DNA of 64,000 nt from an uncultured Alphaproteobacteria bacterium (GTDB taxonomy: Bacteria > Pseudomonadota > Alphaproteobacteria > Methylaequorales > Methylaequoraceae), in NCBI GenBank assembly GCA_902595755.1, contig CACJRF010000006.1, forward strand, positions 5,911 to 69,910, written 5' to 3'. The notes below the pieces were generated by a model. The model was not told where the DNA came from, searched no databases, and was given only the letters and a program-made list of their open reading frames with translations. Position 1 is the first letter of the stretch, and each line of letters starts with the position of its first letter. Of the stretch, positions 49,185-60,831 are shown piece after piece. Both the position numbers and the translations under genes were made by a program.

Positions 49185-49976
49185 CTACATTCCAGGTAGT
49201 CTCATCAAACTTGCTCCAACAGAGTCAAGTTCTTCTGTCATTTGAATCATTTTTACGTGCATCTCGAATTTTCGTTGTTGGTCTATAGTGTTAACCATTT
49301 CTTCAACAGCATTTACATTACTTTTTTCAAGCGTGCCAGCTACTAACTTTCCCTGATTATTAGGAACTATTTCAGCAAGACTAATTTGTCCATTTTCATC
49401 GGGCTCGGTTTGTAATCTTATGTGACCATCTAGTGTTTTTTTTAATTGATCGTTCTCACCAGGAACAAAAGTAGCTATTAAAGCTGCGTTTATTGGCAAA
49501 GCATCTGGTTCAGCCCCAGTTGGTTCAATAATTATCTCGCCATTTGGTGATATGTCAATTCTTCTAAATGCTGGAAGAACGATTGGTTGAAGTCCATCAT
49601 CTAATATTTTATTTCCTGCACCATCAAGTAATTCTCCATTTTCACTAGTTTGCAAATCACCTCTTCTTGATAAAGCCGGGTTTCCACCATCCCTTGGTTC
49701 TATTAAGAAATATCCGTTTCCATCAAGTGCCACATCTAATGGGTTTCCAGTAGTTTCCATTGAACCCTGTTGGGTTGAAAAACCACCCACATTTCTAGCT
49801 GAAACGATTCTAGGTTCCACTCCGTTTTGTCTATTTAGATAAATTGAACCAAAATCTGTAACAACATCTTGACGATAACCAGGAGTGCTAAGGTTCGATA
49901 AATTATGAGAAGTGGCAGTTTGATTTTCCATTAACATTTTTAAGCTATTCAAAGCAGTTTGTGCCATTCTATCCAT
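49185..49976 (-). CDS. flgF: Flagellar proximal rod protein FlgF
   Basis: SHNLSNLSTPGY, TGNPLDVALDGNGYF, SRRGD, LEKSNVNAVEEM, QRKFEM; follows flgE. Confidence 0.9.
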   Translation of the reverse strand: MDRMAQTALNSLKMLMENQTATSHNLSNLSTPGYRQDVVTDFGSIYLNRQNGVEPRIVSARNVGGFSTQQGSMETTGNPLDVALDGNGYFLIEPRDGGNPALSRRGDLQTSENGELLDGAGNKILDDGLQPIVLPAFRRIDISPNGEIIIEPTGAEPDALPINAALIATFVPGENDQLKKTLDGHIRLQTEPDENGQISLAEIVPNNQGKLVAGTLEKSNVNAVEEMVNTIDQQRKFEMHVKMIQMTEELDSVGASLMRLPGM

Positions 49977-50005: not shown

Positions 50006-53000
50006 TTACATTCTAATATTAACAATGGACTGAGTTGTTGCAGCAGTTGTTTCAATTGATTTAGCGTTTGCCTGAAAGTTTCTTTGCGCTGTAATTAAAT
50101 TTACAAGCTCTTCAGTAATATCAACATTTGATCTTTCAAGTGAACCTGAAAGAACAGTACCAAAACCCTCTGCACCAGCTTCACCAACCGTTGCAGTTCC
50201 TGATACAGCTGTTTCAACATAGGTAGCATTACCGATTTGTTTTAAACCATTTTGGTTGTTAAAGTTCGCTAGAACAATTTTTCCCAATGGGTTATTTTGT
50301 CCATTTGTATAGTTGGCTCTAACTGTTCCTGATGCATCAATTTCTAGACCATCTAATCGTCCTGATGTAAAACCATCCTGATTCACAGTTGATACAAAGA
50401 AAGGTTGTGCAAGCTGTGTGGACTTAGTGAAATCGATATCTAGATCGATACTAAACCCCGCTTCTTGTTTCTCATAATGTACGCCCTGTTTAGGACTTAC
50501 AATACTACCGGATTTATCGAATGTTAATTCACCCTCATCAATGTACAAAGGAAAATATCCATCTACTAGGTTTGCTGGAGGTGTAGTTACTTTGTTGCCA
50601 TCTGCGTCCACAAAAAGATTAAGTCCTTCTGCGTTAGTTGCTTGTATTAGATTATAAATTTGTGGAACTGAACCCACACCTAAATCAACGTTATCGAGAC
50701 CAAACTTAGAGGCCCCTCTAACTTTAATAGTTGAATCCTTACCTGTTGTACCATTAGTGAATGTAAAACTGTTCGTATCAGAATTATATTTTACTGTGAT
50801 ACCACCACCCACAGTTCCAGATTCATCTTCAATTTGGTTGATTCTTTCTTGAAGAGCTTCTGCAAGTGTTGTTCCTACATAAAAACCTTGTGGTATTTCA
50901 ATTACTCCTGCCACACCATTAACTGATACGTTGAAAATGTTTTCATTTCCTAGATTTGATAACCTAAACACTTGTGTAAGATCCTCGGTAGCAGATGCCC
51001 CAACTGCTTGAGCGGGTTGAGCTGCTAAACCTTTTGCATCAGTTGTAATGGCATTAGTTTTAGTCACACCAATGCCTAAAAGGTTATTATCTCCTGAGAA
51101 AAAATCTGTACTATCAGTTACCGATCCATCAGTAGTAGATAGTAAGTATCTACCAACTACAATACTCGAAGCAGTTTGAGCTTCGGTAACTCCAATTGCT
51201 CCATTAGCGGCGATAGTTTCACCTGTAGTCCCGCTACTAAATTCAAAGGCTTTTAACTCACTATTATATCCAACTTTAACCCCAAATCGTTTGTCGTTAA
51301 GCTGAATTTCAGCACCATCAGCTACAAAAGTTCCTGCCGAAAATTTAACACCACCTCTAATGAGTGTTTCTGGAGTATCATCAGCTGTAGGAATACCTAA
51401 ATTATTCTCTGATGTTGCAGTTGTAGAACCAAAAATTTTAAAACTATTGAAATTACTATTTGTTCCTGTACCTATTAAGTTTCTATCAACCTCAAACTGA
51501 AGTCTTTGATTTAATACATCATAACTAACCTCTATCGGTGGATCTTTTTCATCTACCCAATGAGTGGCTGGTATCGTTTGATCATCAGTAGTTCCATCTC
51601 CATTCAGATATGTGTCTCTGGTGTTAGCATTTGTGTTTTCTCCTAGTCCAGTTAACTCGTAGGTATCTAATGTTGTGCCTGCCGATGTTTCAGTATCAGT
51701 AAGTGTGAATACTTCTACAAGATCATCAATAATATTTTTTGCAGCGCCCTCAGCAGTTGTTTTTGTAACCATGTCTGCATTGGTATAGTCGTGTTTTGTT
51801 GTAGATCCAATTTCTCTAATAACAATCTTTGAACTACTAAAATTTACTGGTGCTCCGGAGTAAACATTTTGTGCTCCTTCAAAAAATGCTTCAACAGCTG
51901 TCGATTGTTCTGAGTATATGTTAGCCGAGTCATTTGCATCGGCTACAGATAAAGAAAAATCAGAATCTGGAAAATTTAAACCTGCTGTACTTGCTTCTAC
52001 ATAATAATAGGTATTACCACCTGAAGTTTCAGTGCCAGTAGTTGAAATAGTAAATTCACGTCCATTTACAAAATCAGCATTCGCATTTTGCGTTGTGTCT
52101 GAATAAAATTTACCAATAAAACGTACTTTTTCGTTAGCAGTAAGAGCTGGGTCTGTTGTCCCAAAATAAAATCTTACAGTATTTTCTGATTGATCAAATT
52201 CAACTGCAGTTGTACTTGCGTTATCTCCTAACGAATCCATTTCATCATAAACATGAAGTTCAGGACTTTTTCCATAGTAGGAATAGGTAAGATGTCTTCC
52301 TGTTGAAAGAGAACCGTTTGCAGTAAGGTTTGCTGCTGTGTTTGATGTTGCGCTTGAACCATCATCAGCTGTTCTGTGATTAAAAGTAAAAGCTTGACTT
52401 TGGTCAAGTATCGTAGATATAGATTTACCAGAGGCCCTATAAAATAAACTATCTCCAACACCTAAAGCTGTAGCACTATTTACTGCGTCAGTAGATGGAG
52501 TTACTGCATATTCATTGAGAGCAGCATTTAGTCGAGCCTGAGCATGAGCTAGAAACTGTTCTCTTGTAAAATCAGGCGATGCCCCAGTTAATACTATTCC
52601 CTCTAAATTAGAGACATAAGAATCACTCAACAAGTCAACAGACACAGGTGTGGTCAGGCCTGTTGAAGTTCCATCTGCATTTAATTTTAGCAAATCAATA
52701 GTCAATGTGTCATCAACGTTTTGAACAATCTGAATTTTCTTATCATCACCATATGCAGAATTAATAGCTCTTTGAATCTCGGTTGATAATTGAGCAGCAT
52801 TATAAGAACCTGGTCTTATATCAATATTTACTGGTTGGTCACTATTATCAACATTAATAGTCATAAAATTTGTACCCCAATAAATACTTGAAGATGTATC
52901 TCCACTTTCTCTAGTTGAATTAAATTTCATTGGATCTGTAACAACAGTCACAGTTTTATCACCCTCTTCACCAAAATCGAAAGCACTAGATTCACCAGTT

Positions 53001-53902
53001 ACTTTTGCTGGTGTTGAATCAATTAATGTTTGTAAATCATCTAATTTATAAAGTGCTGATCCTTTACCTTCCAAGAAATAGTTATCATCAGGAACAGATG
53101 TAGTTTGCTGACCGAAACGGTCAATAAAGATTGGCTGTTGAGTATCTGTTACTGAACGAACCAAATCTGGATCAATTACAGTGTCGTTAATTACCAATCT
53201 TGTTTCAAACTTATTCGTAGGGTCGTCAGCTGATGCTGCTTGTGTTCGAATAAAAAATATGGTTGCAATCGTTGGGTTACCTAAATCATCAAAGATCGTG
53301 ATTGAAGTTGAATTATTGTAAGTGGTTGGATCATTAGGATCAAAGACATAACCATTTTCAAATTGTGGTTTATCAGTAATAATTTCACTTGTAGCAGATA
53401 CGTTTACACCCAGCTCAATTGATGTTGTCGCCTTTGGTGTTCCTGAAGTTACTGGAAGTTGCAGTGGTACAGCACTGACTAAGTCTTTTGCTGTTACTGA
53501 ACCATCCTCGTTCACTGGAAAAGTAAGCAAAAACTGTCCAGATGAATCAGTAACATATCTATCATTATTAACGTTAAATGAGCCATTCCTTGTATAAACT
53601 GTTTGACCAGATGTCAATGATGGTTTTAAGGAGAAAAAACCTTGTCCTGAAATCGCTACGTCTAATACGTTAAGGGATGAAGTAATGTTACCTTGAGTGA
53701 ACTGCTGTTTTACACTTTTTAGAATTGTACCAGAACCGATTGAAGATGAAGCATTTTGTAATGGAGAAGTTGCAAAAATATCACCAAATTCTGCCCTTGA
53801 TCTTTTAAAACCAGTCGTGTTAACGTTTGCAATATTGTTTGAAGTAGCCGAAATATCGGACTGCGCTCCATTTAACCCTGTTAATGCTGTATAAAATGAC
53901 AT
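50006..53902 (-). CDS. flgE: Flagellar hook protein FlgE, giant (1298 aa)
   Basis: N-terminal SNNIANVNTTGFK/DVAISGQGFF/YTRNGSF; FlaE-type YNNSTSITIFDDLG; C-terminal ANYTNGQ/LANFNN/SGSLERSNVDITEELVNLITAQRNFQANAK; lies between flgD and flgF. Confidence 0.95.
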   Translation of the reverse strand: MSFYTALTGLNGAQSDISATSNNIANVNTTGFKRSRAEFGDIFATSPLQNASSSIGSGTILKSVKQQFTQGNITSSLNVLDVAISGQGFFSLKPSLTSGQTVYTRNGSFNVNNDRYVTDSSGQFLLTFPVNEDGSVTAKDLVSAVPLQLPVTSGTPKATTSIELGVNVSATSEIITDKPQFENGYVFDPNDPTTYNNSTSITIFDDLGNPTIATIFFIRTQAASADDPTNKFETRLVINDTVIDPDLVRSVTDTQQPIFIDRFGQQTTSVPDDNYFLEGKGSALYKLDDLQTLIDSTPAKVTGESSAFDFGEEGDKTVTVVTDPMKFNSTRESGDTSSSIYWGTNFMTINVDNSDQPVNIDIRPGSYNAAQLSTEIQRAINSAYGDDKKIQIVQNVDDTLTIDLLKLNADGTSTGLTTPVSVDLLSDSYVSNLEGIVLTGASPDFTREQFLAHAQARLNAALNEYAVTPSTDAVNSATALGVGDSLFYRASGKSISTILDQSQAFTFNHRTADDGSSATSNTAANLTANGSLSTGRHLTYSYYGKSPELHVYDEMDSLGDNASTTAVEFDQSENTVRFYFGTTDPALTANEKVRFIGKFYSDTTQNANADFVNGREFTISTTGTETSGGNTYYYVEASTAGLNFPDSDFSLSVADANDSANIYSEQSTAVEAFFEGAQNVYSGAPVNFSSSKIVIREIGSTTKHDYTNADMVTKTTAEGAAKNIIDDLVEVFTLTDTETSAGTTLDTYELTGLGENTNANTRDTYLNGDGTTDDQTIPATHWVDEKDPPIEVSYDVLNQRLQFEVDRNLIGTGTNSNFNSFKIFGSTTATSENNLGIPTADDTPETLIRGGVKFSAGTFVADGAEIQLNDKRFGVKVGYNSELKAFEFSSGTTGETIAANGAIGVTEAQTASSIVVGRYLLSTTDGSVTDSTDFFSGDNNLLGIGVTKTNAITTDAKGLAAQPAQAVGASATEDLTQVFRLSNLGNENIFNVSVNGVAGVIEIPQGFYVGTTLAEALQERINQIEDESGTVGGGITVKYNSDTNSFTFTNGTTGKDSTIKVRGASKFGLDNVDLGVGSVPQIYNLIQATNAEGLNLFVDADGNKVTTPPANLVDGYFPLYIDEGELTFDKSGSIVSPKQGVHYEKQEAGFSIDLDIDFTKSTQLAQPFFVSTVNQDGFTSGRLDGLEIDASGTVRANYTNGQNNPLGKIVLANFNNQNGLKQIGNATYVETAVSGTATVGEAGAEGFGTVLSGSLERSNVDITEELVNLITAQRNFQANAKSIETTAATTQSIVNIRM

Positions 53903-53923: not shown

Positions 53924-54628
53924 TTAATCGTTAGTTTTTAATTTTATGGCGTCATTTGCTGAAATTTCTCCATAATCTTTAGTTTCTAAAATTACGTCCT
54001 CACTATCTTTTGGAGCAGAAGCAGCAATGACTTTATTGTACACAGCTGTACTTATTCCGTCACTTGCTTGACCATTCCCTGCATAGGCTTGAATCGTAAG
54101 TCTTGTCTTATTTCTTTTGATTTCATCTGGAATATCAGTCCAACTGAAACCAACTAAACCTCTATCATTTGAACCAAGGTTCATCGTGTGAACAATTTCA
54201 CCACTTGGATTTGTAAAAGTTAAACCTACATCGTTTGAGTAACTAGGTAAATCAACAACTCCGTGAATCTCACCCTTATCATCAGGACTTACAACTTGTC
54301 CAGGGACAAGAACTGAATGTCCTAAAAATTGTGCAGCTGTAGCTACACGATTAGGTTCAAGTTTTGATCCTAAATTAGTTAAGTTACTATTAATTTCAGT
54401 AATACCTGTTACCGTTGAAAATTGAGCCATCTGCGCAATAAAATCTCCGTTATCCATTGGAGCAAATGGATCTTGATTTTGAAGTTGAGTGGTCATGAGC
54501 TTTAAAAAATCTTCCTGACCTAATTTGTTTTTATTACCTTCTTTTTTTACATCTTCTTGCGTTCTTACTCCAAGTTTATTTAGAATATTATTTAAAGATT
54601 GTTCTGATGTTTTTGAAATATCTGCCAT
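53924..54628 (-). CDS. flgD: Hook capping protein FlgD
   Basis: LGQEDFLKLMTTQLQNQDPFAPMDNGDFIAQMAQFS. Confidence 0.97.
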   Translation of the reverse strand: MADISKTSEQSLNNILNKLGVRTQEDVKKEGNKNKLGQEDFLKLMTTQLQNQDPFAPMDNGDFIAQMAQFSTVTGITEINSNLTNLGSKLEPNRVATAAQFLGHSVLVPGQVVSPDDKGEIHGVVDLPSYSNDVGLTFTNPSGEIVHTMNLGSNDRGLVGFSWTDIPDEIKRNKTRLTIQAYAGNGQASDGISTAVYNKVIAASAPKDSEDVILETKDYGEISANDAIKLKTND

Positions 54629-54639
54629 TTTTTACCCCT

Positions 54640-55053
54640 TTATTTTCCTAAACTTGCAGTTTTAAGCATTAGCGCTTTAATTGTTGAAATTACCTCTACA
54701 TTATTTTGATAATGTCTCGATGCCTCAAGCATATCCACGTATTCTTCTTCAATATTCACAGGTGCTCTATATATAAAACCATTCTCATCAGCCATAGGGT
54801 GACCAGGTTTATATTCTTTTATCGGATCTATATCCATCTTTTGAACAGTTACCGCATCAACTGTAGAAATCCCTTTTTTCCTAATTAGATCAAAATATTT
54901 TGTTTCAAATACTGGTTTTACAGGTTTGTAAGCATCATTAGGATTTGATGCAATATTATCTGCGTTGGCTAAATTACTAGCCGTAGCATTAAGCCTTACT
55001 AGCTGAGCTCCCATTGCCCTTTGTGCTATGTGATAAATATTTTTAATATCCAT
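54640..55053 (-). CDS. flgC: Rod protein FlgC
   Basis: ASNLANAD, PGHPMADENG, PVNIEEE...ASRHYQNN. Confidence 0.95.
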   Translation of the reverse strand: MDIKNIYHIAQRAMGAQLVRLNATASNLANADNIASNPNDAYKPVKPVFETKYFDLIRKKGISTVDAVTVQKMDIDPIKEYKPGHPMADENGFIYRAPVNIEEEYVDMLEASRHYQNNVEVISTIKALMLKTASLGK

Positions 55054-55442
55054 TATTCACCCCTTATCGCCCCAAGTAACCCTCTAATTTTTGAATTAAT
55101 AAAATCTAAAGTTGTTTGATATCTAATCGAGTTTTCAGCAAATTCCATCTGTTCAACTGCAAGTTCAACAGTATTTCCATCAACAGAAGGGTTAATTGAC
55201 TGACGATATTGAACTTTGCCTGGTAAATACTTAGTAGTTAATGCTATATGAGCATCACTTGATGTTTTTAGAGGTCCGTTGTTTAATGATCTTGCTAATT
55301 CCACCTCAAAGTCAACATCTCTTGCTTTAAAATTTGGTGTAGAAGCATTGGCAATGTTAGACGCAAGAATCTCATTCTTTTTGTTTCTAATGTTTAATGC
55401 ATTGCTGTACACATCAAATTGTTGTTTAATACTATTATTCAT
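55053..55442 (-). CDS. flgB: Rod protein FlgB (129 aa)
   Basis: ATG at 55442; ILASNIANASTPNFKARD, DGNTVE. The track's 285-aa version is an antisense read of the neighbouring gene. Confidence 0.95.
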   Translation of the reverse strand: MNNSIKQQFDVYSNALNIRNKKNEILASNIANASTPNFKARDVDFEVELARSLNNGPLKTSSDAHIALTTKYLPGKVQYRQSINPSVDGNTVELAVEQMEFAENSIRYQTTLDFINSKIRGLLGAIRGE

Positions 55443-55506: not shown

Positions 55507-56448
55507 ATGAATGAAAAAAATGAGTTAAACACAAACTTAGATCCTGAAGTTGAAAAAATAAGAGACCAAATAATTTCAAAAATAGGAGATAAACCTTTAG
55601 ATGAAGTAAACCAAGTCATCAAAAAATTGCTAATGGAAAATATGGATGAAACAATGAGACTTGCTGCACTGGCGGCAAGAGTAAAGATTATTAGAGGGAA
55701 AATTTCCTTATTATATGATAATAAAATTGAAATTAATAAACCAAAAACAAAACCTGTTGAACAAAAGTCAGATGAAAAAACAAATATTAAAGAAGAGAAA
55801 TGGGTCAGAATAAAGATGCTTGAGTCTGGTGAAGTCAACGGTAAACAAATTGATAAGGATGTAATACTAGATGTTAAAGAAGAAGACTCAAAAATTCTTA
55901 TAAATGCCAAAAAAGCAGAAATAGTTATAGATAAAGCTGATAAGCCTGATCAGACGAAAAAAGCAGATATTGACCCTGAAAAAAAAGCTAGTGTAAAAAA
56001 TGATATCCAAGAGGAGGCTAAAGAAAGTAAATCTGATAAAAGTACTAATGAGGCAGAACAAAATATTGAGGATAAAAATAAAAAAGATCTTTTAGATAAG
56101 CATGAAAAGAAAGAAAAAGATGGCAAAATTGAAGATAAAATGGAAGATTCAAAAGAGTCTAAATCTGATGAGAATAAGACGGCTGAACAAGCTGCACCGT
56201 CTTCTGAGAGCAAACCATTAGAAGAGGCTAAAAGTAAAGAAGATAAACCGGCTGAACAAGCTGCACCTGCATCTGAGAGCAAACCAGTAGAAGATGCTAA
56301 AGGTGAAGAAGATAAACCGGTTGCACAAGCTATACCTTCTTCTGAGAGCAAACCAGAAGAAAAGGCTCAAGGTGAAGATAAACCGGTTGCACAAGCTACA
56401 CCTTCTTCTGAGAGCAAACCAGTAGAAGAAAATAATTCTAAAAACTAA
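55507..56448 (+). CDS. Hypothetical protein (313 aa) with a small folded domain and a Lys/Glu/Asp-rich repeat tail
   Basis: ATG at 55507 preferred because the longer ORF overlaps flgB antisense; no signal peptide or TM segment seen. Confidence 0.8.
   Translation: MNEKNELNTNLDPEVEKIRDQIISKIGDKPLDEVNQVIKKLLMENMDETMRLAALAARVKIIRGKISLLYDNKIEINKPKTKPVEQKSDEKTNIKEEKWVRIKMLESGEVNGKQIDKDVILDVKEEDSKILINAKKAEIVIDKADKPDQTKKADIDPEKKASVKNDIQEEAKESKSDKSTNEAEQNIEDKNKKDLLDKHEKKEKDGKIEDKMEDSKESKSDENKTAEQAAPSSESKPLEEAKSKEDKPAEQAAPASESKPVEDAKGEEDKPVAQAIPSSESKPEEKAQGEDKPVAQATPSSESKPVEENNSKN
56173..56430 (+). repeat. Four in-frame tandem repeats, periods 69/69/66 bp
   Basis: TCTGAGAGCAAACCA at 56203, 56272, 56341 and 56407; encodes ~23-aa units KP(A/V)(E/A)QA.PSSESKP.E. 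Confidence 0.95.
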
Positions 56449-59128: not shown

Positions 59129-60310
59129 CTATTTTAAAAATTTAATGAATTTTCCCTCAATGGCATCATTTTTATTGCTAGGGTTTAGTGGTTCAATCTC
59201 AGAAAAATCATCATTTGTATTTTTTACTGTTACTACAATCCAGTCATTCATATTCATATCATTTCCATTTGGTGAAATTATTCCAACTTTCCCTTTTTTT
59301 AAACCTTGGTTAGCACCTAAAGAAACAATTATCTTATTATCAACTTTTCTAGCTAATGCTTCAAGTGGATGACATTTTAATTGGTCCATTATTCTATATT
59401 GTACTTTAGATAAACTTTTATCCACTAATACTTTAATTTTATCGTATGGCTTTCTATAAAAAGCGTCTATATGCTGATAACCTGTTTGTTGTCCCAAAAG
59501 AAGAGAGAATTGATATTCTAAACTACTTATCAATTGAAAATTTCTATTTTCATAAATATCTAAAGTTAAATTTACTAATAACTCTTTGGAGAATCTTCCA
59601 ATTTTTCCGTTAATGCTATCAATAAGAATTGTTGGATGAACTGCAAATTCTCCATCTTTTAATGAGACACTCCTGCCGTCAACTATGTTATCATAATTTA
59701 AATCTGATGATTTAATACTAAGACTCTTTGGATTAAAAAAAACATTAGATTTATCTTTTAATCTTATGAAATCGATTTTTTTTAAACTTTGCCTAATATT
59801 ATGTGATATTGCCTTAGGTAATTTATGAGTCCAGGGATCTAATTTACTTGAAACTGTAAAATGTGGAGATAAATACGAAACGTTAACATAAGGTCTTTCG
59901 CTACAACTTGATGTTGAATTAATATTAACTAAATAAGCTTTAATTTTAACGGAATAATGTGTCTTATCTGCTTTTTCATCTATTATAACAAAGTCAGTTA
60001 TGGTCGATGCAGGTCTAACCAAAAGATTTTCATTTAGTCGTGTTAAACTATCTACATTGGAATATCCATCAACTTTTGCTCCACCTCTCAGGCTTGCCAG
60101 GTAAAGTGCATCATCCAATGCTCTTTTTTTTGCTAGCTTTTTATCTCCGTCAATAATTACTGCACGTCCTTCAGTTATTATCTCTTTAACATTGTATTCA
60201 CTTGCAAGAGTGTAAGTTGATAAAAGAAGAACAAATAAAACACTAGAAAAGAAAAGAACTAAATCTTTTAGTACTACGTCAAATTTATTATATTCAATTT
60301 TCTTTAACAT
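59129..60310 (-). CDS. flgT: Flagellar H-ring/T-ring assembly protein FlgT
   Basis: FlgT-N pattern EGRAVIIDGDKKLAKKRALDDAL...GGAKV; C-terminal IVSLGANQGLKKG; adjacent to flgP. Confidence 0.8.
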   Translation of the reverse strand: MLKKIEYNKFDVVLKDLVLFFSSVLFVLLLSTYTLASEYNVKEIITEGRAVIIDGDKKLAKKRALDDALYLASLRGGAKVDGYSNVDSLTRLNENLLVRPASTITDFVIIDEKADKTHYSVKIKAYLVNINSTSSCSERPYVNVSYLSPHFTVSSKLDPWTHKLPKAISHNIRQSLKKIDFIRLKDKSNVFFNPKSLSIKSSDLNYDNIVDGRSVSLKDGEFAVHPTILIDSINGKIGRFSKELLVNLTLDIYENRNFQLISSLEYQFSLLLGQQTGYQHIDAFYRKPYDKIKVLVDKSLSKVQYRIMDQLKCHPLEALARKVDNKIIVSLGANQGLKKGKVGIISPNGNDMNMNDWIVVTVKNTNDDFSEIEPLNPSNKNDAIEGKFIKFLK

Positions 60311-60315
60311 AAAAC

Positions 60316-60831
60316 CTATAATGTTTGGGCACTTCTAAATAAATATGCAACCATATCTTGATCGATCTCAAGAACTGTTTCATAAGTATCAGAGCCTGTT
60401 GGATTAATTCTGACAGTCCTGGCCCCTCTAATTACGCCAGAAACAACACCACGAAAAGTATCATTTTGTACCATTAAATCAATAACAGTAGTATTACTAT
60501 CAACTTTAAGACCATGAATTTGTTCAGCTAAATCTCTCATTGCTGACATACGCGCAGATCTAATTGCCATCAACCTTTTTTGCTCAATACTTTGACCAGG
60601 TTGACTTGATACCACTGCATAACCAGTAGCAGTTAGGGTTGGAAAATTAATGGAGGCCCCGTCCAGAAGGTCTCTTGTTTTATTAAGTTGACTTGTTGGA
60701 GCTGAATAATCAAATTCATCTGCTGTTTGACCTGCTTGCTTATTTGCTAAATTTCCTCTCATATTGTCTAGAAAATTTGAAGAACATGATTGTATAAACA
60801 GTGCAGTAAAAATAATTAAAATATATTTCAT
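60316..60831 (-). CDS. flgP: Flagellar outer-membrane lipoprotein FlgP (LPP20 family)
   Basis: Lipobox IQS-C; LTATGYA...RLMAIRSAR...RDLAEQIHGLKV...VSGVIRGA. Confidence 0.85.
   Translation of the reverse strand: MKYILIIFTALFIQSCSSNFLDNMRGNLANKQAGQTADEFDYSAPTSQLNKTRDLLDGASINFPTLTATGYAVVSSQPGQSIEQKRLMAIRSARMSAMRDLAEQIHGLKVDSNTTVIDLMVQNDTFRGVVSGVIRGARTVRINPTGSDTYETVLEIDQDMVAYLFRSAQTL

What the first reader, a model, noticed from the sequence alone, without database searches (positions are those of the whole stretch)
50006..53902. Giant 1298-aa flagellar hook protein with a ~880-aa insertion
Seen: both FlgE termini and the start of the D2 (FlaE) domain are intact, but residues ~243-1121 (nt ~50540-53176) are an extra Thr/Ser/Asp/Gly-rich, Cys-free block. 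Established: Salmonella/E. coli FlgE is ~400 aa, and Campylobacter FlgE reaches ~850 aa through extra outer domains. Inference: each hook subunit would carry several additional surface domains. That predicts a very thick or decorated hook, which could stiffen it, act as an adhesin, or shield or vary a phage-binding surface. Keeping a 3.9-kb hook gene in a genome this compact implies selection.
Basis: partly seen in the sequence, partly recalled or inferred. Interest (0 to 1): 0.85.

Follow-up and report, generated by a model that had tools for sequence, protein, structure and literature searches.

The report
Giant flagellar hook protein FlgE
This small-genome ocean bacterium makes its flagellar hook from a protein three times the usual size, because a conserved, folded arm of about 850 amino acids sits inside the outer hook domain. 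The same giant hook gene occurs in many abundant marine Alphaproteobacteria, and I found no paper that studies it.

Summary
Window 50006-53902 (-) is an intact 1298-aa ORF with every FlgE core domain. It lies in a flgB-C-D-E-F operon and is the only hook gene found in the genome.

- **The insert.** About 850 residues (~269-1120) replace roughly 80 residues of domain D2. It is not a low-complexity spacer. AlphaFold2 predicts mostly confident beta-rich and alpha/beta domains, and it evolves under purifying selection.
- **Its layout.** It has two conserved arms (269-475 and 776-1120) and a faster-evolving centre (476-775). The centre contains an indel hot spot that holds 42 to 340 residues in relatives.
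- **Distribution.** The same insert is in FlgE of 1230-1547 aa in more than 200 species-level genomes. Nearly all are marine Alphaproteobacteria: the window's clade, SAR116, PS1 and pelagic roseobacters.
- **Linked features.** In a sample of genomes it always came with FlgT and with a giant FlgK (1285-1795 aa; 1789 aa here).
- **No known relative.** The insert shows no detectable relationship to the extra domains of Campylobacter FlgE or to anything in Pfam or PDB.

Best reading: a thick hook (roughly 32-35 nm) whose extra layers strengthen or stiffen the joint of a polar flagellum, with a tolerant, exposed tip. The function is inferred, not shown. It is a new variant of a known kind, of moderate to good interest.

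The parts
50006..53902 (-). flgE, giant hook protein: 1298 aa, 138 kDa, pI 4.3
   Evidence: ORF; Pfam and NCBIfam FlgE domains; mass and pI
53099..53902 (-). N-terminal core, residues 1-268: D0 helix, Dc, first half of D1, first strands of D2
   Evidence: Aligns to solved polar-flagellum FlgE 9yee/8z5u residues 3-214. NCBIfam NF004240 matches 1-268. 0.74-0.99 identical to the window protein in 25-residue blocks of alignment A1.
52478..53098 (-). Insert, proximal N-arm, residues 269-475. Conserved alpha/beta region that includes helices 369-384 and 447-466.
   Evidence: AF2 pLDDT mostly 85-95. Conservation 0.74-0.93 in 25-residue blocks. dN 0.03-0.15. Residues 296-382 resemble 961-1023 (hhalign probability 89).
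51578..52477 (-). Insert, variable centre, residues 476-775. Beta-rich and presumably the outermost part of the arm.
   Evidence: Conservation 0.38-0.73 in 25-residue blocks. dN 0.09-0.55, omega 0.06-0.43. Amino-acid diversity 0.082 among 39 close relatives. A disordered loop at 515-529.
51560..51778 (-). Indel and cassette hot spot, residues ~709-781, between the KHxY and WVDEKxPP anchors
   Evidence: This segment is 42 to 340 aa long in 69 related loci, with at least five unrelated contents. The 332-340 aa cassette of some relatives is 43-45% identical to repeats in this genome's FlgK.
50543..51577 (-). Insert, distal-to-proximal C-arm, residues 776-1120. This is the most widely shared part of the insert.
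   Evidence: The representative search shows this part in proteins of about 830-2492 aa. The A3 profile is found in 207 species-level genomes. It folds confidently only together with the N-arm: pLDDT 85-93 in the long model but 39-75 when folded alone.
50678..51010 (-). Self-contained alpha/beta module, residues ~965-1075 (beta hairpin, helix 1010-1021, beta sheet)
   Evidence: pLDDT about 90 even when the C-arm is folded alone. Foldseek matches Vibrio cholerae FlaA (9n8g_C) and a cyanophage sheath protein (8kee_C), each with probability 1.0 and E about 0.01; that these matches fall on this module is my assumption, because the tool gave no query coordinates. Internal repeat 874-896 ~ 1034-1056 (probability 95).
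50009..50542 (-). C-terminal core, residues 1121-1298: last D2 strands, second half of D1, D0 helix
   Evidence: Aligns to solved FlgE residues 290-437. Flg_bbr_C at 1252-1295. 0.91-1.0 identical in 25-residue blocks from residue 1126 on.
53924..54628 (-). flgD, hook cap, 234 aa (ordinary size)
   Evidence: NCBIfam FlgD models, E 1.5e-40
54640..55053 (-). flgC, proximal rod
   Evidence: TIGR01395, 125.6 bits, above its cut-off
55053..55442 (-). flgB, proximal rod (likely start MNNSIK...)
   Evidence: TIGR01396, 106.5 bits, above its cut-off; start located
49185..49976 (-). flgF-like rod protein, 263 aa, immediately downstream of flgE
   Evidence: NF009280 and TIGR02490 FlgF models
59129..60310 (-). 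flgT (H-ring component of Vibrio-type polar motors)
   Evidence: Pfam FlgT_N, 37.6 bits, above its cut-off. Present in 9 of 9 sampled genomes with this giant FlgE and 0 of 17 without it.
60316..60831 (-). flgP-like lipoprotein (LPP20)
   Evidence: Pfam LPP20, 32.8 bits, above its cut-off

Best explanation
This is the cell's only hook protein.

**Shown**
- It keeps the complete FlgE polymerisation core (D0, Dc, D1, D2), which is closest to the hook of Vibrio-type polar flagella.
- It carries a folded, multi-domain arm of about 850 residues nested in D2.
- The arm runs out through a conserved N-arm (269-475), reaches a faster-evolving centre that tolerates cassettes (476-775), and returns through a conserved C-arm (776-1120). 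The C-arm folds confidently only together with the N-arm.

**Inferred**
- In the roughly 120-subunit hook, these arms add one or more concentric outer layers around the normal 18-nm tube.
- The hook would then be about 32-35 nm wide, with extra contacts between subunits that strengthen and stiffen the universal joint. Deletion experiments showed this effect for the unrelated D3 and D4 domains of Campylobacter FlgE.
- The enlarged junction protein FlgK (1789 aa) would match this thick hook to a filament built from flagellins of ordinary size.
- For a very small marine cell with a single polar motor that has FlgT and FlgP, a stiffer hook would resist buckling or tearing at high rotation rates. 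It would also set the threshold for reorientation by flicking.
- The arm's exposed tip is free to vary.

I am about 97% sure of the identity and architecture. My confidence in the mechanical function is about 50%.
For: **Identity**
- Domains and operon.
- No other FlgE_D2 hit in the genome.
- The core aligns to solved polar-flagellum hooks 9yee and 8z5u (Foldseek hit 8z5y, probability 1.0).

**Folded arm**
- 813 of 1180 modelled residues have pLDDT of at least 70, and the insert is mostly 85-95.
- The C-arm folded alone drops to a mean pLDDT of 65.6.

**Selection**
- Insert arms dN 0.03-0.18 against dS mostly above 1. The centre is 2-5 times faster, but omega stays below 0.45.
- Diversity profile among 39 close relatives.

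**Spread**
- 878 hits to the insert.
- 407 clusters at the 50%-identity level.
- ORFs of 1230-1547 aa in 69 complete loci.
- The insert profile is in 207 species-level genomes.

**Co-enlargement and motor type**
- FlgK is 1285-1795 aa in genomes with this FlgE (one further FlgK was cut at a contig end), against 450-721 aa in the ordinary-FlgE genomes where FlgK was found.
- FlgT_N is present in 9 of 9 such genomes and 0 of 17 others.
- flgT and flgP lie in the window.

**Precedent**
- The extra FlgE domains of Campylobacter widen the hook from 180 to 280 A and make it more robust (PMC5097172).
- Scaling from those two hooks gives 325-346 A here.
Against: - No hook of this family has been imaged. 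Neither the diameter nor any contact between subunits is shown.
- I could not see model coordinates or dock the model on a hook lattice.
- The link with FlgT may only reflect shared ancestry of one type of flagellar gene cluster. Vibrio has FlgT with an ordinary 437-aa FlgE.
- No MotY (T-ring) was found, so a high-torque motor is not established.
- dS is saturated, so the omega values are rough.
- The D1 part of the model was poorly predicted.
Confidence: 0.55

Rival explanations
1. The arm is mainly a surface-interaction or evasion layer. On this reading its outer tip binds particles, algae or other cells, or it changes to escape flagellotropic phages and grazers. Any mechanical effect would be secondary.
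For: - The centre of the insert is the fastest-evolving part.
- It contains a hot spot where unrelated cassettes of 42-340 aa have been swapped in.
- One cassette type is shared with FlgK (E 3e-26), so modules have moved between exposed axial proteins.
- In Campylobacter the variable, antigenic parts of FlgE are likewise the exposed D3 and D4 surfaces (PMC5097172).
Against: - Omega stays well below 1 everywhere.
- Only 28% of centre sites vary among 39 close relatives.
- About two thirds of the insert (the two arms) is strongly conserved across orders, which fits a structural role.
- No adhesin, lectin, Ig-array or enzyme signature in Pfam, PDB or BFVD.
- A hook is only about 55 nm long, which is a small target compared with the filament.
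Confidence: 0.25
2. The enlargement is largely non-adaptive. Domains accreted in a tolerant surface loop, as in flagellin hypervariable regions. They were then kept because they became interlocked with D2 folding or hook assembly, without giving the hook a new property.
For: - Internal repeats indicate growth by duplication.
- Other Alphaproteobacteria enlarged FlgE independently, with unrelated inserts of 750-1143 aa total length.
- Giant flagellins arose many times by similar routes (PMC6248924).
Against: - The carriers seen in the 401-genome sample have small genomes of 1.3-2.5 Mb. In such genomes 9.3 kb, or 0.7% of this one, for flgE plus flgK is hard to keep without benefit.
- The arms are nearly as conserved as parts of the core across distinct lineages.
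- FlgK is enlarged in step with FlgE.
Confidence: 0.12
3. The long ORF is an artefact: a misassembly, a chimera or a decaying gene.
For: The closest relative in a long-read MAG (L065) has the gene broken into at least four ORFs.
Against: - Dozens of independent single-cell and metagenome assemblies give intact ORFs with the same architecture.
- The frame has no stops, and there is a good ribosome-binding site.
- Purifying selection acts along the whole length.
- L065 is a polished long-read contig, where indel errors are expected.
Confidence: 0.01

Closest known systems
Campylobacter jejuni FlgE (865 aa; PDB 5jxl, 5az4) and Helicobacter pylori FlgE, with extra domains D3 and D4
   Same: - Extra folded domains are inserted in D2 of a true hook protein.
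- They form additional concentric layers (hook 280 A against 180 A) that make the hook more robust.
- The exposed parts are the variable ones.
- FlgK is also diverged or enlarged.
(PMC5097172, PMC5069557, PMC5691160.)
   Different: - The insert here is about twice as large (about 850 against about 450 residues).
- It shows no sequence match and no Foldseek match to D3 or D4.
- TIGR02489 scores 149 against a cut-off of 413.
- The core is of the Vibrio-like polar type.
- The hosts are free-living marine Alphaproteobacteria.
FlgE of Vibrio-type polar flagella (434-437 aa; PDB 8z5u/8z5y, 9yee)
   Same: - These are the best-matching solved cores, with E about 1e-69 over residues 4-223 and 1153-1297.
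- The gene cluster shares flgT, flgP, flgA, flgM and flhF.
   Different: - Those hooks have an ordinary D2, with about 80 residues where this protein has about 929.
- No MotY was found here.
Giant flagellins of marine Oceanospirillales (Thomson et al. 2018, PMC6248924)
   Same: - An axial flagellar protein of more than 1000 aa in marine bacteria with a polar flagellum.
- It is enlarged in the exposed central region, partly by internal duplication.
- It is predicted, and for the flagellins shown, to thicken the structure.
- That paper asks whether other flagellar parts are correspondingly large.
   Different: - The protein here is the hook, not the filament.
- In this genome's family the flagellins are ordinary in size (249-528 aa), although other lineages with this FlgE also have flagellins of 812-1770 aa.
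Caulobacter crescentus FlgE (591 aa) with one extra domain
   Same: An alphaproteobacterial hook protein with an added outer domain (PMC5069557).
   Different: It carries one small domain only. The NCBIfam flgE_Caulobact model scores 125 against a cut-off of 750.

Membership tests
Flagellar hook protein FlgE (FlgE/F/G superfamily, TIGR03506) | N-terminal rod/hook helix (Flg_bb_rod, PF00460) | tested here: met
   Residues 3-33, 35.7 bits against a cut-off of 20.7
Flagellar hook protein FlgE (FlgE/F/G superfamily, TIGR03506) | D1 domain (PF22692) and C-terminal helix (Flg_bbr_C, PF06429) | tested here: met
   D1 at 83-127 (43.2 bits) and Flg_bbr_C at 1252-1295 (54.9 bits), both above their cut-offs. 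TIGR03506 scores 283.7 against 70.25.
Flagellar hook protein FlgE (FlgE/F/G superfamily, TIGR03506) | Hook-specific D2 domain (FlgE_D2, PF07559) | tested here: met
   54.4 bits against 22.7, split into two stretches by the insert. Foldseek matches D2 of solved hooks (8z5y and 9wx3, probability about 1.0).
Flagellar hook protein FlgE (FlgE/F/G superfamily, TIGR03506) | Genomic position after flgD within the flgBCDE(F) operon, and sole copy in the genome | tested here: met
   flgB, C, D upstream and flgF downstream on the same strand. The only other TIGR03506 hits are rod proteins and FlgK. The genome is 87.5% complete, so a missing copy cannot be fully excluded.
Flagellar hook protein FlgE (FlgE/F/G superfamily, TIGR03506) | Score above an NCBIfam FlgE equivalog cut-off | tested here: not met
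   The best is NF004238, 377.7 bits against a cut-off of 400. The shortfall comes from the split D2, since both halves align end to end. It weakens automatic naming but not the identification.
Flagellar hook protein FlgE (FlgE/F/G superfamily, TIGR03506) | Polymerises into the hook between rod and junction | not testable with these tools
   Needs microscopy or proteomics of isolated hooks
Epsilonproteobacterial large FlgE (TIGR02489; D3/D4 domains) | Score above the family cut-off | tested here: not met
   149.3 bits against 412.85, and only the C-terminal core matches
Epsilonproteobacterial large FlgE (TIGR02489; D3/D4 domains) | Insert homologous to D3/D4 | tested here: not met
   A profile of 41 sequences matches 5jxl and 5az4 only over the C-terminal core (profile positions 1025-1147). 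Neither chain is among the 50 Foldseek hits listed for the whole model.
Flagellin hook IN motif modules (PF07196) | Match to the Pfam model | tested here: not met
   No hit for the whole protein at E up to 0.1, or for eight pieces of the insert at E up to 10. This genome's FlgK does hit the model (26.8 bits).
Flagellin hook IN motif modules (PF07196) | Profile or fold similarity to true IN-bearing outer domains | tested here: inconclusive
   hhalign of module profiles against this genome's FlgK IN region and FliD gives probability of at most 1.5. However, the C-arm model, whose only confident part is the 965-1075 module, matches V. cholerae flagellin FlaA in Foldseek (probability 1.0, E 0.012, 125 columns).

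The most novel reading that the evidence does not exclude
A whole guild of abundant, small-celled ocean Alphaproteobacteria (the window's clade, SAR116, PS1 and pelagic roseobacters) would swim with a hook about twice the normal width. In the window's clade the hook would be thicker than its own filament.

The hook's interlocked outer sleeve, together with a matching giant FlgK collar, would set the bending stiffness of the joint. That in turn would set the speed at which the hook buckles, which governs run-reverse-flick steering.

The sleeve's tip would be a plug-in site where surface cassettes are exchanged between hook and junction proteins.
Probability: 0.3. Interest if true: 0.75.

Novelty: new variant of a known kind. 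Interest (0 to 1): 0.6.

Why it matters
**Published picture.** Hook proteins are treated as about 400-aa parts, with Campylobacter's 865 aa called "one of the longest" (PMC5069557). The giant-flagellin paper explicitly asked whether other flagellar components are correspondingly large (PMC6248924).

**What this gene shows.** Hooks of 1230-1547 aa and junction proteins of up to about 1800 aa are standard equipment in several of the most abundant motile alphaproteobacterial lineages of the surface ocean. These lineages have small genomes, where 9 kb of extra coding is costly.

**If the arm stiffens the hook.** That would link a sequence feature to the mechanics of steering in tiny marine swimmers. 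It would also offer a second, independent test, unrelated to Campylobacter, of how outer domains tune a universal joint.

**What makes it testable.** Two named isolates carry the gene: IMCC14465 and IMCC1909.

Tried and rejected
1. **Low-complexity or tandem-repeat spacer: rejected.** No DNA tandem repeats, and self-BLAST found nothing. Only weak profile-level internal repeats exist.
2. **Known domains in the insert: none found.** Pfam on eight pieces at E up to 10. A PDB sequence profile. Foldseek against PDB and BFVD with the long model gave only core hits or hits of low probability.
4. **Insert related to this genome's giant FlgK: rejected** for this protein. A cassette in longer relatives is related to FlgK repeats.
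5. **Hypervariable insert: rejected** as a whole.
6. **T-ring or sodium-motor hallmark MotY: not found**.
7. **All enlarged alphaproteobacterial FlgE proteins form one family: rejected.** The 750-1143 aa FlgE proteins of other genomes lack this insert, and the three of them checked for FlgT (1039-1143 aa) lack it too.
9. **Naming the lineage: no result.** Six literature searches in all found no paper on giant FlgE and no name for the window's clade.
10. **Folding the C-arm alone to get a cleaner fold search: worse model.** That result is itself informative about the arm's packing.


Full report
**The observation.**
The ORF at 50006..53902 on the minus strand is open and 1298 aa long. An AAGGAG ribosome-binding site lies 9 nt before the ATG. 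Pfam finds the four parts that define a hook protein:
- Flg_bb_rod at 3-33
- the FlgE/F/G D1 domain at 83-127
- FlgE_D2 at 186-362, in two stretches
- Flg_bbr_C at 1252-1295

NCBIfam FlgE models align end to end, but only to residues 1-~268 and ~1121-1296. TIGR03506 scores 283.7 bits against a cut-off of 70.25. The best FlgE equivalog model falls just short, at 377.7 against 400, because the match is split.

The neighbours on the same strand are flgB, flgC and flgD upstream and a flgF-like gene downstream. Further upstream lie flgM, flgA, a LysM protein, flgT and a flgP-like lipoprotein, with flhA divergent from them. No second hook gene turned up in the 1.30-Mb, 87.5%-complete genome.

I move the insert boundaries slightly, to about 269-1120. 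The Thr/Ser/Gly/Asp richness and the absence of Cys are real, but the conserved core shares them. They are the usual make-up of exported axial proteins.

**Size of the insertion.**
The closest solved structures are FlgE proteins of polar flagella (9yee and 8z5u, 434-437 aa; E about 1e-69). They align to residues 4-223 and 1153-1297. About 929 residues therefore stand where those hooks have about 80 residues of D2. The protein weighs 138 kDa, of which about 94 kDa is insert.

**The insert is a folded, conserved structure.**
An AlphaFold2 model of residues 71-1250 was built on 41 homologues of 38-93% identity. Its mean pLDDT is 75, and the insert is mostly at 85-95. The insert is rich in beta strands with a few helices, and has one clearly disordered loop at 515-529. 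Oddly, D1 was the poorly predicted part.

Across 22 relatives of 66-95% identity, conservation varies along the insert:
- the flanks 241-475 and 776-1125 are mostly 0.8-0.9 identical to the window protein (25-residue blocks 0.74-0.93);
- the centre 476-775 falls to 0.38-0.73;
- all large indels fall at positions 754-775.

Synonymous sites are saturated (dS mostly above 1) even against the closest relatives. Non-synonymous divergence against the close relatives is 0.004-0.06 in the core (up to 0.11 against the most distant one compared), 0.03-0.18 in the arms and 0.09-0.55 in the centre. Omega is roughly 0.01-0.1 in the core and arms and 0.06-0.43 in the centre.

Among 39 relatives of identical length, amino-acid diversity is 0.004-0.017 in the core, 0.026-0.034 in the arms and 0.082 in the centre. 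Only 28% of centre sites vary. The insert as a whole is therefore under purifying selection. It has a tolerant middle and is not hypervariable.

**Anatomy of the arm.**
When the C-arm (776-1125) is folded alone with the same depth of alignment, confidence collapses. Mean pLDDT is 65.6 and pTM 0.39, and residues that scored 85-93 in the long model score 39-75. Only a module at about 965-1075 still folds confidently. I read this as an out-and-back path. The chain leaves D2, climbs through the N-arm, turns in the variable centre and returns through the C-arm, with the two arms packed against each other. This is an inference from confidence values, since I had no coordinates.

Profile-profile scans find old internal repeats:
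- 874-896 resembles 1034-1056 (probability 95);
- 296-382 resembles 961-1023 (probability 89);
- 246-273 resembles 1084-1111 (probability 79).

Part of the arm therefore grew by duplication.

**No known fold family for the insert.**
- Pfam is silent on eight pieces of the insert, even at E up to 10.
- A 41-sequence profile matches PDB chains only through the core, and Campylobacter FlgE only through its C-terminal core region.
- Foldseek with the long model returns solved hooks for D2 and nothing credible for the insert in PDB or BFVD.
- The model of the C-arm alone matches Vibrio cholerae flagellin FlaA and a cyanophage sheath protein, each with probability 1.0, E about 0.01 and about 120 columns. 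I assume these matches fall on the 965-1075 module, the only confident part of that model. This is a modest hint that the module belongs to the general class of outer domains of helical tubes.
That got no sequence support.

**A family, not an oddity.**
- The insert alone finds 878 proteins in the 90%-identity collection. The best 120 are nearly all 1255-1547 aa and carry the FlgE Pfam set.
- It finds 407 clusters in the 50%-identity library, and the C-arm is the most widely shared part.
- In one-genome-per-species contigs, 69 complete loci give ORFs of 1230-1547 aa with a nearly invariant N-terminus.
- A profile of the C-arm alone finds 207 species-level genomes.

The record titles name SAR116/Puniceispirillales, the PS1 clade and Rhodobiaceae (including isolate IMCC14465), pelagic Paracoccaceae such as Planktomarina, Amylibacter and isolate IMCC1909, Rhodospirillaceae MAGs, and the window's own clade. 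That clade is variously labelled "alpha proteobacterium MED-G10", "Pelagibacteraceae TMED13" and "Rickettsiales MED652". A quick tree places the window's clade next to SAR116 sequences. Rhodobacterales labels fall in three places, which could mean transfer of the cluster or mislabelled bins.

**Length survey.**
In an even sample of 401 alphaproteobacterial genomes, 224 have FlgE_D2. Most open frames are 410-650 aa. At least 12 exceed 1000 aa, and all 12 are in genomes of 1.3-2.5 Mb (the list was truncated, so this is a lower bound).

Nine of the 12 (FlgE frames of at least 1250 aa, from five GTDB families) carry this insert. The three with 1039-1143 aa and four with 750-860 aa do not. Large FlgE proteins therefore arose more than once in the class.

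**What travels with it.**
- FlgT_N is present in 9 of 9 genomes with this FlgE and in 0 of 17 others tested.
- In the eight of these genomes where the FlgK frame is complete it is 1285-1795 aa; in the ninth (G136) it is cut at a contig end. In the three genomes with other large FlgE proteins it is 746-909 aa. In the ordinary-FlgE genomes where it was found it is 450-721 aa.
- In this genome FlgK is 1789 aa, the second-longest ORF.
- Together flgE and flgK take 0.7% of the assembled genome.
- Flagellins differ by lineage. In the window's family the largest is 515-528 aa and the rest are about 250-290 aa. Other lineages with this FlgE also have flagellins of 812-1770 aa.
- MotY was not found.

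These associations are not phylogenetically independent. They show that the giant hook belongs to one type of flagellar gene cluster, with a Vibrio-like core and FlgT and FlgP.

**The hot spot.**
Between two conserved anchors (KHxY near residue 703 and WVDEKxPP near 782), the segment is 73 aa long here and 42 to 340 aa in relatives. It has at least five unrelated contents. The 332-340 aa version consists of repeats (HGxxTGD...YYxxKVDxNxFxLA). These are 43-45% identical to repeats in this genome's FlgK (E 3e-26). Surface modules have therefore moved between the hook and junction proteins at a site that I take to be the exposed tip of the arm.

**How it most likely works.**
Shown: a complete polymerisation core plus a conserved, folded arm of about 850 aa nested in D2.

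Inferred: on the usual 11-protofilament lattice the arms add outer layers. Scaling cross-section per kDa from the published Salmonella (180 A) and Campylobacter (280 A) hooks gives about 325-346 A.

In Campylobacter, unrelated extra domains make new contacts within and between protofilaments, and deleting them weakens the hook (PMC5097172). By analogy the arm would strengthen and stiffen the joint, and the giant FlgK would adapt the thick hook to the filament.

From general knowledge, not tested here: marine bacteria with a single polar flagellum steer by a buckling "flick" of the hook, so hook stiffness is a direct determinant of behaviour. That makes a mechanical role attractive for very small, fast swimmers.

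The rivals are an interaction or evasion surface, supported only by the behaviour of the centre, and non-adaptive accretion. Accretion is disfavoured by conservation across lineages in small genomes and by the matched enlargement of FlgK.

**Novelty.**
Six full-text searches found structural work on hooks up to Campylobacter's 865 aa ("one of the longest", PMC5069557) and the giant-flagellin paper (PMC6248924). That paper asks whether other flagellar parts are correspondingly large. I found nothing on FlgE of this size or on this insert. The databases simply label these proteins "flagellar hook protein".

Earlier notes of this scan report the same family in another genome and analogous giant hooks in marine Gammaproteobacteria. 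I treat those as leads, not support.

I class this as a new variant of a known kind: a true FlgE with a new, much larger outer architecture.

**Limits.**
- No coordinates or predicted-aligned-error maps.
- No multimer modelling.
- No reads or expression data.
- Saturated dS.
- Taxon labels are those of the submitters.

Noticed in passing
outside the window: genome contig C3:43095-48464 (+): FlgK (hook-filament junction protein) is 1789 aa, about three times the usual size and the second-longest ORF of the genome. It has FlgK_D1, Flagellin_IN and several HGxxTGD...YYxxKVDxNxFxLA repeats. It sits in a flgG-H-I-J-K-L-flagellins-fliD-fliS cluster.
   Followed up: partly
relatives P0094, P0105, P0106, P0110; loci L057, L058, L060 (FlgE of 1537-1547 aa): A cassette of 332-340 aa at the FlgE hot spot is 43-45% identical to the FlgK repeats of this genome. 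Surface modules have therefore been exchanged between hook and junction proteins.
   Followed up: partly
protein P0139 (2492 aa, from the representative library): An odd fusion. It has a long array of short helical repeats, then the FlgE D2 domain plus this insert, then a FlgD-like C-terminal Ig-like domain. It lacks the N-terminal rod helix, so it is not a normal hook subunit.
   Followed up: no
outside the window: genome contig C3:42783-43094: FlgJ is only 103 aa, the rod-binding part alone without a muramidase domain.
   Followed up: no
window 55507-56448 (+): A 313-aa charged, repeat-ended protein divergent from flgB, with no Pfam match.
   Followed up: no
locus L065 (closest relative, polished long-read MAG): flgE is broken into at least four ORFs of 152-340 aa. 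These are most likely indel errors of the assembly, not a pseudogene.
   Followed up: partly
outside the window: genome contigs C11:51699-57743 (-) and C7:55856-59818 (-): Two very large repetitive proteins of 2014 and 1320 aa. They share about 80-aa Thr/Ser/Gly-rich repeats and a common C-terminal ending (...STPD.S..VNPC...GYC.). The shorter one begins like a secreted filamentous haemagglutinin-type protein.
   Followed up: no
genomes G137, G289, G199 (other Alphaproteobacteria): FlgE proteins of 1039-1143 aa that lack this insert and lack FlgT, with FlgK of 746-909 aa. This is an independent enlargement of the hook in the same class.
   Followed up: partly
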